From the IMG/VR virus record IMGVR_UViG_2526164690_000046: a DNA stretch of 22,540 nt; one strand, written 5' to 3'. Shown here piece after piece: positions 14,088 to 14,648 of the stretch. Within the stretch, counting starts at the first letter, position 1, and every line of letters begins with the position of its first letter. Made by a program: the position numbers and the translations under genes. The DNA is from a virus (Duplodnaviria > Heunggongvirae > Uroviricota > Caudoviricetes). The notes under the pieces were generated by a model. It was not told the DNA's origin and searched no databases. It saw only the letters and a program-made list of their open reading frames with translations.

Positions 14088-14109
14088 CGATATGGGAATT
14101 CCCATATCG
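14088..14109. repeat. 22-bp perfect palindrome CGATATGGGAATTCCCATATCG
   Basis: Self-complementary by direct reading; centred on GAATTC; no U-tract follows. Confidence 0.8.
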
Positions 14110-14325
14110 GGTAAAAACGGTTTGCGGGAAAAGGAGAGTTAAGTAGAATTGCTGCGGGTGCTTGAGGCTATCTGTCTCAGGCATGAACACCAAAAGGCAG
14201 ATAGAGAAAAGCCCCAGTTAACATTACGCGTCCTGCAAGACGCTTAACATTAATCTGAGGCCCAATCTATGTCTCACAAATGTAGGTTAGCCTCTTACGT
14301 GCCGAAAGGCAAGGAGAAGCAGGCT

Positions 14326-14481
14326 ATGAAGCAGCAAAAGGCGATGTTAATCGCCCTGATCGTCATCTGTTTAACCGTCATAGTGACGGCACTGGTAACG
14401 AGGAAAGACCTCTGCGAGGTACGAATCCGAACCGGCCAGACGGAGGTCGCTGTCTTCACAGCTTACGAACCTGAGGAGTAA
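14326..14481 (+). CDS. hok: Hok-family type I toxin (Hok/Gef-like, 51 aa)
   Basis: MKQQKAMLIALIVICLTVIVTALVTRKDLCEVRIRTGQTEVAVFTAYEPEE matches the Hok/Gef family as recalled; AAGGAG SD; the track ORF extends in frame upstream to 14269 (mok-like leader frame). Confidence 0.8.
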   Translation: MKQQKAMLIALIVICLTVIVTALVTRKDLCEVRIRTGQTEVAVFTAYEPEE

Positions 14482-14488
14482 GAGACCC

Positions 14489-14510
14489 GGCGGGGGAGAA
14501 ATCCCTCGCC
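14489..14510 (+). other. GNRA-loop stem-loop at the hok 3' end
   Basis: GGCGGGGGA / GAAA / TCCCTCGCC, 9-bp stem with one G-U; no U-tract. Confidence 0.5.
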
Positions 14511-14648
14511 ACCGCTGATGTGTCAGGCATCCTCAACGCACCCGCACTTAACCCGCTTCGGCGGGTTTTGTTTTTTCTGGTCGTTCTGGTTTACAATCCA
14601 TCCGTCAGCCTGAACAACTGGCACCTGCTGCGCCAGCAGAGAAAACAG

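What the first reader, a model, noticed from the sequence alone, without database searches (positions are those of the whole stretch)
14100..14520. hok-type type I toxin locus without an identifiable antisense (sok) gene
The Hok ORF is intact with a strong SD, an in-frame upstream extension (mok-like) and a 3' GNRA hairpin (14489-14510). Inverted repeats in the leader (CTATCTG ... CAGATAG; TTAACATTA direct repeat flanking GCGTC..GACGC) fit the fold-back elements known for hok mRNAs. I could not place a convincing minus-strand promoter for the expected antisense RNA.
Basis: partly seen in the sequence, partly recalled or inferred. Interest (0 to 1): 0.5.

Follow-up and report, generated by a model that had tools for sequence, protein, structure and literature searches.

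The report
Ordinary prophage hok/mok/sok toxin–antitoxin locus
This is a complete, standard hok/mok/sok toxin–antitoxin module in a lambdoid E. coli prophage: the "missing" antisense Sok gene sits on the minus strand at about 14277–14203, behind a weak-looking promoter identical to the experimentally tested sokW promoter of Shiga-toxin phage 933W/Sp5.

Summary
The interpretation, a hok locus without sok, is wrong.

**Where sok is.** The minus strand 14327→14207 aligns with the annotated sokW gene and promoter of phage 933W. The first 48 of the 50 bases upstream of the sokW start are identical. They contain TTGCCT, a 17-nt spacer and TAACCT. Takada et al. 2021 mutated exactly this −10 box and lost antitoxin activity.

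**Why it was missed.** A consensus scan does not call the promoter, because TAACCT matches only 3 of 6 consensus positions.

**Independent support.**
- A covariance model built only from K-12 sokB/C/E and an IncFII plasmid sok gives its best window hit at 14277–14201 on the minus strand.
- The predicted RNA has a free 5' tail, a long hairpin and a U-rich end.
- The hok mRNA (14156–14576) carries tac, ucb, mok SD, dcb, fbi and a terminator.

**Context.** The locus is 100% identical in O26:H11 and O103 STEC genomes. RefSeq annotates only "hokD" there. K-12 Qin hokD is the truly sok-less, truncated copy.

**Verdict.** Already known, low interest.

**Side observation.** Across 114 prophage copies, the Sok 5' tail is a sharp hypervariable patch.

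The parts
14122..14149 (+). hok promoter (inferred): -35 TTGCGG 14122-14127, 16-nt spacer, -10 TAGAAT 14144-14149
   Evidence: Its position relative to the mRNA 5' end matches the K-12 hokB/C/E, 933W and IncFII loci. The -10 box is almost invariant across 68 prophage copies. The consensus scan does not call it, because the -35 box matches only 3 of 6 positions.
14156..14576 (+). Full-length hok mRNA (inferred 5' end GGGUGCUUGAGG; 3' end at the intrinsic terminator)
   Evidence: The Rfam hok-leader model starts at 14156. A terminator-like site lies at 14550-14567 followed by a T run. The MFE fold gives z=-6.5. The conserved block ends at about 14570.
14156..14167 (+). tac element (5' end of the hok mRNA)
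   Evidence: It pairs with fbi in the full-length MFE fold. It pairs with ucb in the Rfam consensus structure. It is invariant in 68 copies.
14168..14204 (+).
   Evidence: I2.
14208..14215 (+). ucb / anti-SD (AAAGCCCC)
   Evidence: It pairs with tac in the Rfam consensus. In the MFE folds it pairs with the mok SD region.
14218..14252 (+). Hairpin TTAACATTAcGCGTC-ctgcaa-GACGCTTAACATTAA. On the minus strand it is the Sok terminator hairpin.
14257..14261 (+). mok Shine-Dalgarno (GAGGC)
   Evidence: It lies 8 nt before the mok ATG and pairs with dcb GCCTC 14290-14294 in the Rfam consensus.
14269..14481 (+). mok ORF (70 aa, in frame with hok and sharing its stop)
   Evidence: The 57-nt extension matches annotated mokW, and K-12 mokC has a similar in-frame extension that shares the hokC stop. 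The ATG sits at -57 in nearly all prophage variants.
14326..14481 (+). hok ORF (51 aa; protein identical to K-12 HokD), with SD AAGGAG at 14311-14316
   Evidence: Pfam PF01848, 82.9 bits. RefSeq names it hokD.
14489..14510 (+). 3' hairpin with GAAA loop; probably the protective 3' stem-loop of the processed (truncated) hok mRNA
   Evidence: It is present in both folds. The role is inferred from R1, where the last stem-loop of the truncated hok mRNA protects against 3'-5' exoRNases (PMC9841398).
14531..14543 (+). fbi element (CCTCAACGCACCC), complementary to tac
   Evidence: The full-length MFE fold pairs mRNA nt 1-12 with this element.
14550..14576 (+). Intrinsic terminator of the hok mRNA
   Evidence: 7-bp stem with 5 GC pairs, followed by TTGTTTTTT.
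14284..14312 (-). sok promoter: -35 TTGCCT (14312-14307), 17-nt spacer, -10 TAACCT (14289-14284)
   Evidence: The first 48 of the 50 nt upstream of annotated sokW are identical. The same layout occurs in K-12 sokB/C/E and the IncFII sok. The spacer is 17 nt in all 114 prophage copies, with hexamers TTGCCT or TTGACC and TAACCT or TAATCT. Takada 2021 mutated this -10 box, TAACCTA to GAGCCGG, and lost antitoxin activity.
14203..14277 (-). Sok antisense RNA gene (about 71-75 nt; +1 inferred at G14277; 3' end after GGGGCUUUU(CUCU))
   Evidence: It aligns with the 71-nt annotated sokW. A covariance model built without sokW gives its top window hit at 14277-14201 on the minus strand, 21.4 bits, E about 0.004. 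The fold shows a free 5' tail, a long hairpin and a U-rich tail, z=-5.6.

Best explanation
The region 14122-14576 is a complete canonical hok/mok/sok type I toxin-antitoxin module in the early-right region of a lambdoid (Rac-like) STEC prophage.

Mechanism, shown for R1 hok/sok and partly for hokW-sokW, and inferred here:
1. The hok mRNA (14156-14576) is made constitutively. It folds shut through tac-fbi end pairing, and the mok SD is sequestered by ucb.
2. Slow 3' trimming removes fbi and the terminator. The mRNA then ends at the GAAA hairpin. It refolds so that tac pairs with ucb and the mok SD pairs with dcb. This exposes the mok start region.
3. The unstable Sok RNA of about 71-75 nt is transcribed from the minus strand. 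Its promoter is TTGCCT-N17-TAACCT and its +1 is about 14277. Its free 5' tail is antisense to the mok start region (mok ATG, the SD-ATG spacer and codons 2-3), and its hairpin stem overlaps the mok SD.
4. Sok blocks mok translation. Because hok translation is coupled to mok, hok is blocked too. The Sok-hok duplex is cleaved by RNase III.
5. When sok transcription stops, through prophage induction, loss of the element or host shut-off, Sok decays. Mok and Hok are then translated, and the 51-aa Hok peptide depolarises the inner membrane.

By analogy with hokW-sokW, the likely biological role is to assist lysis and phage release after induction. Prophage addiction and phage exclusion are alternative roles.
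For: Shown here:
- Hok belongs to PF01848.
- The in-frame mok ORF has its own SD.
- The Rfam hok-leader model matches at 120 bits with the tac/ucb and SDmok/dcb helices.
- The full-length fold pairs the 5' end with fbi and carries a terminator.
- The sok promoter region matches sokW: the first 48 of the 50 upstream bases are identical.
- The promoter layout is shared with K-12 sokB/C/E and the IncFII sok and is conserved in 114 prophage copies with an invariant 17-nt spacer.
- An independent Sok covariance model gives its top hit at 14277-14201 on the minus strand.
- The Sok fold has z=-5.6.
- The locus is 100% identical in 100 E. coli records, including O26:H11 11368, and is more than 80% covered in 3842 records.

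From the literature:
- sokW RNA was detected by northern blot. Mutating its -10 box abolished protection. Sok loss after mitomycin C led to HokW production and better phage release (PMC8621323).
- The tac/fbi/ucb/dcb mechanism is described for R1 (PMC9841398).
- The HokD coding sequence is toxic when expressed (bioRxiv 10.1101/2025.08.07.668861).
Against: - There are no expression data for this exact locus.
- The -10 box TAACCT matches only 3 of 6 consensus positions, and the consensus scan does not call the promoter.
- The MFE fold of the 3'-truncated mRNA gives the 5' metastable hairpin rather than the open tac-ucb form. The refolding step therefore rests on the Rfam consensus structure and on analogy with R1.
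- The Sok 5' tail differs from sokW at 6 of 16 positions, so kinetic properties may differ.
- Chromosomal hok loci tested earlier did not mediate post-segregational killing (cited).
Confidence: 0.88

Rival explanations
1. One reading: an orphan hok gene that has lost its antisense regulator, as in K-12 Qin hokD/relF, and is kept silent by other means.
For: The consensus promoter scan finds no minus-strand promoter in 14200-14330. RefSeq annotates only a hokD CDS here. A truly sok-less copy exists: K-12 Qin hokD is identical from about 14312 to 14576 but has relBE sequence in place of the leader. Four of 118 distinct IMG/VR loci likewise lack the leader.
Against: The window keeps the whole leader. 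The sokW promoter is present, with 48 identical bases upstream of the start, and so are the Sok hairpin and tail. An independent Sok covariance model finds the gene. The identical -10 box is functional in sokW.
Confidence: 0.03
2. A structurally complete but physiologically inert relic. Sok and hok are both transcribed, but the module never fires, or Hok is too weakly activated to matter, as was argued for chromosomal hok loci.
For: Earlier work found that chromosomal hokA, hokB and hokC loci do not mediate post-segregational killing and are not activated by rifampicin (summarised). Several copies per genome (median 2, up to 10) could buffer each other.
Against: No IS insertion or frame disruption is present. 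Every regulatory element is intact and strongly conserved across prophages, while the flanks are mosaic. The 94%-identical hokW-sokW is functional and affects phage release.
Confidence: 0.1

Closest known systems
hokW-mokW-sokW of Stx2 phage 933W / Sakai prophage Sp5 (AF125520; Takada et al. 2021, PMC8621323)
   Same: About 94% DNA identity over window 14112-14553. The layout is the same, with the same 57-nt in-frame mok extension. The sok promoter hexamers and spacer are identical, and so is the Sok hairpin apart from one loop base. Both lie in lambdoid prophages.
   Different: The Sok 5' tail and mok codons 2-5 differ: GTGAGACATAGATTGG here against GTTCAGCATGGATTGA. Hok differs at the C-terminus, FTAYEPEE against FVDYESEK. 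Similarity ends just after fbi, so the terminator at 14550-14576 is not shared. The position within the phage genome also differs: here the module lies between the replication/nin-like genes and DUF968-RusA-Q.
hok/sok (parB) of plasmid R1 and IncFII relatives
   Same: The full element set is shared: tac, ucb, mok SD, dcb, fbi, and a Sok RNA with a 5' tail, a hairpin and a GGGGCU-U-rich end. The sok promoter sits in the same place, TTGCGC-N17-TATCCT.
   Different: HokW, the window Hok's close relative (92% identical), shares only 44% identity with R1 Hok (paper). mok is in frame with hok here and shares its stop; my reading of the IncFII sequence, not formally checked, puts the plasmid mok in a different frame from hok. 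The Sok hairpin carries an extra GCGTC/GACGC extension. The module is in a prophage rather than a plasmid.
hokD (relF) of E. coli K-12 cryptic prophage Qin
   Same: The Hok protein and DNA are identical from the hok SD to the terminator, and the downstream neighbours are the same (an unnamed ORF, then the DUF968 gene ydfU).
   Different: K-12 has lost everything upstream of about 14312, including the leader, mok and sok, with the breakpoint at the sok -35 box. relBE sits there instead, and rem is inserted after the terminator. The window holds the intact ancestral form.
hokC/mokC/sokC (gef) and hokB/sokB, hokE/sokE of E. coli K-12
   Same: The architecture is homologous. The hokC module has an in-frame mok. 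The annotated Sok RNAs of 57-60 nt align with 14277-14201.
   Different: The K-12 Sok hairpins are shorter. Several K-12 loci adjoin or are interrupted by IS elements: IS186 lies next to hokC and hokE, and IS150 next to hokA.

Membership tests
hok/mok/sok type I toxin-antitoxin family | Small Hok/Gef-family membrane toxin ORF | tested here: met
   PF01848 HOK_GEF, 82.9 bits against a cut-off of 22. The protein is identical to K-12 HokD. NCBIfam Hok-family models match below their cut-offs.
hok/mok/sok type I toxin-antitoxin family | Overlapping upstream mok reading frame with its own SD, whose translation start region is the Sok target | tested here: met
   ATG 14269 is in frame with hok, and SD GAGGC lies at 14257-14261. 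The ATG is conserved at -57 across prophage variants. The Sok 5' tail (14277-14262) covers it.
hok/mok/sok type I toxin-antitoxin family | cis-encoded antisense Sok RNA gene: a promoter between the mok and hok starts on the opposite strand, a single-stranded 5' tail, and a terminator hairpin | tested here: met
   Promoter TTGCCT-N17-TAACCT matches sokW, with 48 identical bases upstream of the start. The layout is shared with sokB/C/E and the IncFII sok and conserved in 114 copies. The covariance-model hit is at 14277-14201 on the minus strand.
hok/mok/sok type I toxin-antitoxin family | Sok RNA is actually transcribed and is unstable | not testable with these tools
   Shown only for the near-identical sokW, by northern blot and promoter mutation (PMC8621323).
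hok/mok/sok type I toxin-antitoxin family | tac-fbi pairing of the mRNA 5' and 3' ends (fold-back inhibition) | tested here: met
   The MFE fold of 14156-14577 pairs nt 1-12 with CCUCAACGCACCC at 14531-14543. This is an in-silico result only.
hok/mok/sok type I toxin-antitoxin family | ucb/dcb boxes allowing the closed-to-open switch (tac-ucb and SDmok-dcb helices) | tested here: met
   The Rfam RF01794 consensus structure aligns over both helices, 120.1 bits. The MFE fold of the truncated RNA instead gives the 5' metastable hairpin, so the switch itself is inferred.
hok/mok/sok type I toxin-antitoxin family | 3' processing to a translatable truncated mRNA; RNase III cleavage of the Sok-hok duplex | not testable with these tools
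   Known for R1 (PMC9841398). For hokW the RNase III dependence is partial.
Orphan / sok-less hok (K-12 Qin hokD type) | Absence of the leader, mok and sok upstream of the hok SD | tested here: not met
   The alignment with Qin shows the window keeps about 155 nt of leader that K-12 lacks.

The most novel reading that the evidence does not exclude
The Sok 5' recognition tail may be a hypervariable 'specificity allele'. The same bases encode the mok SD-ATG spacer and mok codons 2-5 (window 14262-14283).

Across 114 distinct prophage hok modules, this patch of about 20 nt shows 0.35 differences per site. The comparison values are 0.045 at hok third-codon positions, 0.055 in the sok promoter and 0.096 in the Sok hairpin. 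There are at least 20 alleles, and the mok ATG stays fixed.

This could reflect diversifying selection that keeps the several hok/sok copies in one polylysogenic STEC genome orthogonal. One prophage's Sok would then be unable to silence another prophage's hok.
Probability: 0.35. Interest if true: 0.45.

Novelty: already known. Interest (0 to 1): 0.1.

Why it matters
For the finding itself it matters little. It is a textbook hok/mok/sok module, near-identical to the published hokW-sokW system and present in thousands of E. coli genomes.

Two practical lessons follow.

**Weak antisense promoters escape consensus rules.** This one matches only 3 of 6 positions in its −10 box. It is recovered only by homology to characterised loci.

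**Current annotation hides Sok.** RefSeq lists only the "hokD" CDS. The Rfam family named "sok" (RF01794) models the hok-sense leader, so its hits fall on the strand opposite to the real Sok RNA.

The hypervariable Sok 5' tail would be of moderate interest for how polylysogens keep paralogous type I toxin–antitoxin systems insulated from each other. That holds only if selection is shown to drive the variation.

Tried and rejected
1. **Consensus promoter scan of 13900–14800.** It found no promoter for sok or hok. I rejected it as evidence of absence, because the functional sokW −10 box is the same TAACCT.
2. **MFE fold of the 3'-truncated hok mRNA.** I hoped to recover the open tac–ucb form. 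It gave the 5' metastable hairpin instead, so it is inconclusive for the refolding step.
3. **The Rfam "sok" hit as direct proof of a Sok gene.** Rejected. The model matches the hok-sense strand here and in K-12, 933W and IncFII, opposite to the annotated sokC, sokB, sokE and sokW.
4. **Whether co-resident copies carry different Sok-tail alleles.** Only four isolate genomes had two loci in my sample, and three of the four pairs differed. That is too few to conclude anything.
5. **Literature on hok/sok paralogue cross-talk.** The cross-interaction review says nothing specific. A first look-up failed on term syntax.
6. **YUNR U-turn motif in the target loop.** By eye it is present in the window (CUCA) and in 933W (CUGA), but not evident in all alleles. 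I did not pursue it.

Full report
**Observation**

- a 51-aa Hok ORF at 14326–14481, with AAGGAG at 14311–14316, 9 nt upstream of the ATG;
- an in-frame ATG at 14269, giving a 70-aa mok-type ORF;
- the CTATCTG/CAGATAG inverted repeat at 14168–14174 and 14198–14204;
- the TTAACATTA direct repeat at 14218–14226 and 14244–14252, around GCGTC/GACGC;
- a 9-bp hairpin with a GAAA loop at 14489–14510.

The identity is not in doubt. Pfam HOK_GEF scores 82.9 bits against a cut-off of 22. Rfam RF01794 aligns full-length over 14156–14331 at 120.1 bits, E=3e-27.

**Where sok is**

A consensus σ70 scan finds no minus-strand promoter between 14200 and 14330.

Phage 933W (AF125520) carries an annotated mokW/hokW/sokW locus that is about 94% identical to the window. 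I aligned the annotated 71-nt sokW plus 50 nt upstream against the window's minus strand. It places them at 14327→14207. The first 48 of the 50 upstream bases are identical. The resulting features are:
- −35 box TTGCCT at 14312–14307;
- a 17-nt spacer;
- −10 box TAACCT at 14289–14284;
- start at G14277.

TAACCT matches the consensus at only 3 of 6 positions, which explains why consensus rules miss it.

Takada et al. 2021 (PMC8621323) detected sokW RNA by northern blot. They also showed that a "pro-less" mutant loses protection against HokW. Mapping their primers YO-421 and YO-422 onto 933W shows that the mutation converts GAGGC-TAACCTA to GAGGC-GAGCCGG. That is exactly the hexamer present in the window.

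The same layout is found in K-12 sokB, sokC and sokE and in an IncFII R1-type locus. It consists of TTGnnn, about 17 nt including GTAAGAGGC, a TAnnnT-type −10 box (CACTCT in sokC), and a start about 7 nt downstream. In 114 distinct prophage copies the spacer is always 17 nt. The hexamers there are TTGCCT or TTGACC, and TAACCT or TAATCT.

As an independent test I built a covariance model from the K-12 sokB/C/E annotations plus the IncFII sok only, leaving sokW out. Its best hit in the whole window, on either strand, is 14277–14201 on the minus strand. The hit is full-length, 21.4 bits, E≈0.004.

The predicted RNA folds into a free 5' tail, a long hairpin and a GGGGCUUUUCUCU end. Its energy is −32.5 kcal/mol, z=−5.6.

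**The rest of the module and the mechanism**

Conservation across 68 homologous IMG/VR copies defines the unit as about 14121–14576, with mosaic flanks.

- The inferred hok promoter is TTGCGG-N16-TAGAAT (14122–14149). The mRNA starts at GGGUGCUUGAGG (14156).
- In the full-length fold, mRNA nt 1–12 (tac) pair with CCUCAACGCACCC (fbi, 14531–14543). An intrinsic terminator follows at 14550–14576.
- The Rfam consensus structure aligns the tac–ucb helix (ucb at 14208–14215) and the mok-SD–dcb helix (14257–14261 with 14290–14294).
- These are the elements described for R1 hok/sok: closed full-length mRNA, 3' trimming, refolding, Sok binding and RNase III cleavage (PMC9841398).
- The GAAA hairpin is in the position of the protective 3' stem-loop of the truncated mRNA. 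This is an inference.
- The MFE fold of a truncated RNA returned the 5' metastable hairpin rather than the open form. The switch is therefore inferred, not shown.

**Context**

The 501-bp region is 100% identical in 100 E. coli records, including O26:H11 11368 and O103 strains. It is at least 80% covered in 3842 records, with a median of two copies per genome.

In O26:H11 11368 it lies in a prophage. Upstream are ydaT/U/V-type replication genes and small ORFs. Downstream are DUF968, RusA and the Q antiterminator. RefSeq annotates only "hokD" there, with neither mok nor sok.

K-12 Qin hokD is identical from the hok SD (about 14312) through the terminator, but it has relBE in place of the leader, mok and sok. 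It is the K-12 copy, and the window is the intact form.

**Annotation pitfall**

RF01794, named "sok", matches the hok-sense strand in the window and in the K-12, 933W and IncFII loci. That is opposite to the annotated sokC, sokB, sokE and sokW. The model describes the hok leader, not the Sok transcript.

**Side observation**

Among prophage copies with 92–100% identical Hok, variation is concentrated in 14262–14283. This stretch covers Sok nt 1–16, the mok SD–ATG spacer and mok codons 2–5.

| Region | Differences per site |
|---|---|
| Sok 5' tail (14262–14277) | 0.35 |
| hok third-codon positions | 0.045 |
| sok promoter | 0.055 |
| Sok hairpin | 0.096 |

There are 20 tail alleles, and the mok ATG stays fixed at −57.

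- This could be relaxed constraint combined with recombination among paralogues.
- It could instead be selection for non-cross-reacting Sok/hok pairs in polylysogens.
- The within-genome sample was too small to decide between these.
- The reviews I read do not discuss it.

**Verdict**

This is a standard, already characterised kind of locus, the closest relative being hokW-sokW. Interest is low.

Noticed in passing
window 14262-14283: Hypervariable patch among otherwise near-identical prophage hok modules. It covers the Sok 5' tail, the mok SD-ATG spacer and mok codons 2-5. It shows 0.35 differences per site against 0.045 at hok third-codon positions, and 20 alleles in 114 distinct copies. These may be specificity alleles.
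   Followed up: partly
window 14156-14331 (+); L002, L003, L005, L007, L008: Rfam RF01794 'sok antitoxin' matches the hok-sense strand in every locus tested, opposite to the annotated Sok RNAs. The model is really the hok mRNA leader, so pipelines that use it would place 'sok' on the wrong strand.
   Followed up: yes
window about 14312 and 14577; L006 (K-12 Qin): K-12 Qin hokD is a 5'-truncated copy of this module. The breakpoint lies at the sok -35 box and relBE sits upstream. K-12 also has rem inserted just after the hok terminator, which the window lacks. Four of 118 distinct IMG/VR loci also lack the leader.
   Followed up: yes
L001 (NC_013361.1 1884574-1885074), equivalent to window 14100-14600: RefSeq/PGAP annotates only the hokD CDS in the 100%-identical O26:H11 locus. 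Neither mok nor sok is annotated.
   Followed up: yes
window 14088-14109: A perfect 22-bp palindrome, CGATATGGGAA/TTCCCATATCG, with no spacer, immediately upstream of the hok promoter (I5). It lies in the variable flank outside the conserved module. It could be a protein-binding site or a module junction.
   Followed up: no
window 13934-13954 and 14109-14129: A 21-nt direct repeat, GGGTAAAAACG(T/G)T..GC.GGGA, 81% identical (D1). One copy overlaps the hok -35 region. The other precedes a 34-aa hydrophobic ORF (13975-14079, annotated as hypothetical in O26, with no Pfam hit). A second small hydrophobic ORF lies at 13856-13933.
   Followed up: no
window 14464-14467: The Hok Tyr47 codon TAC is followed by G, giving UACG. 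From my own recollection this is the TadA editing context. [quoted passage not shown]
   Followed up: no
window 1557-1735, 17952-18205, 21521-21706: Other Rfam hits in the window: RalA at 225 bits (Rfam description 'RalR antitoxin'; I recall ralR/ralA as a Rac-prophage toxin-antitoxin pair, not checked here); STnc100 and the anti-GcvB sRNA AgvB next to each other on opposite strands; and IsrK next to C4 antisense RNA. From my own recollection this combination fits an STEC lambdoid prophage.
   Followed up: no
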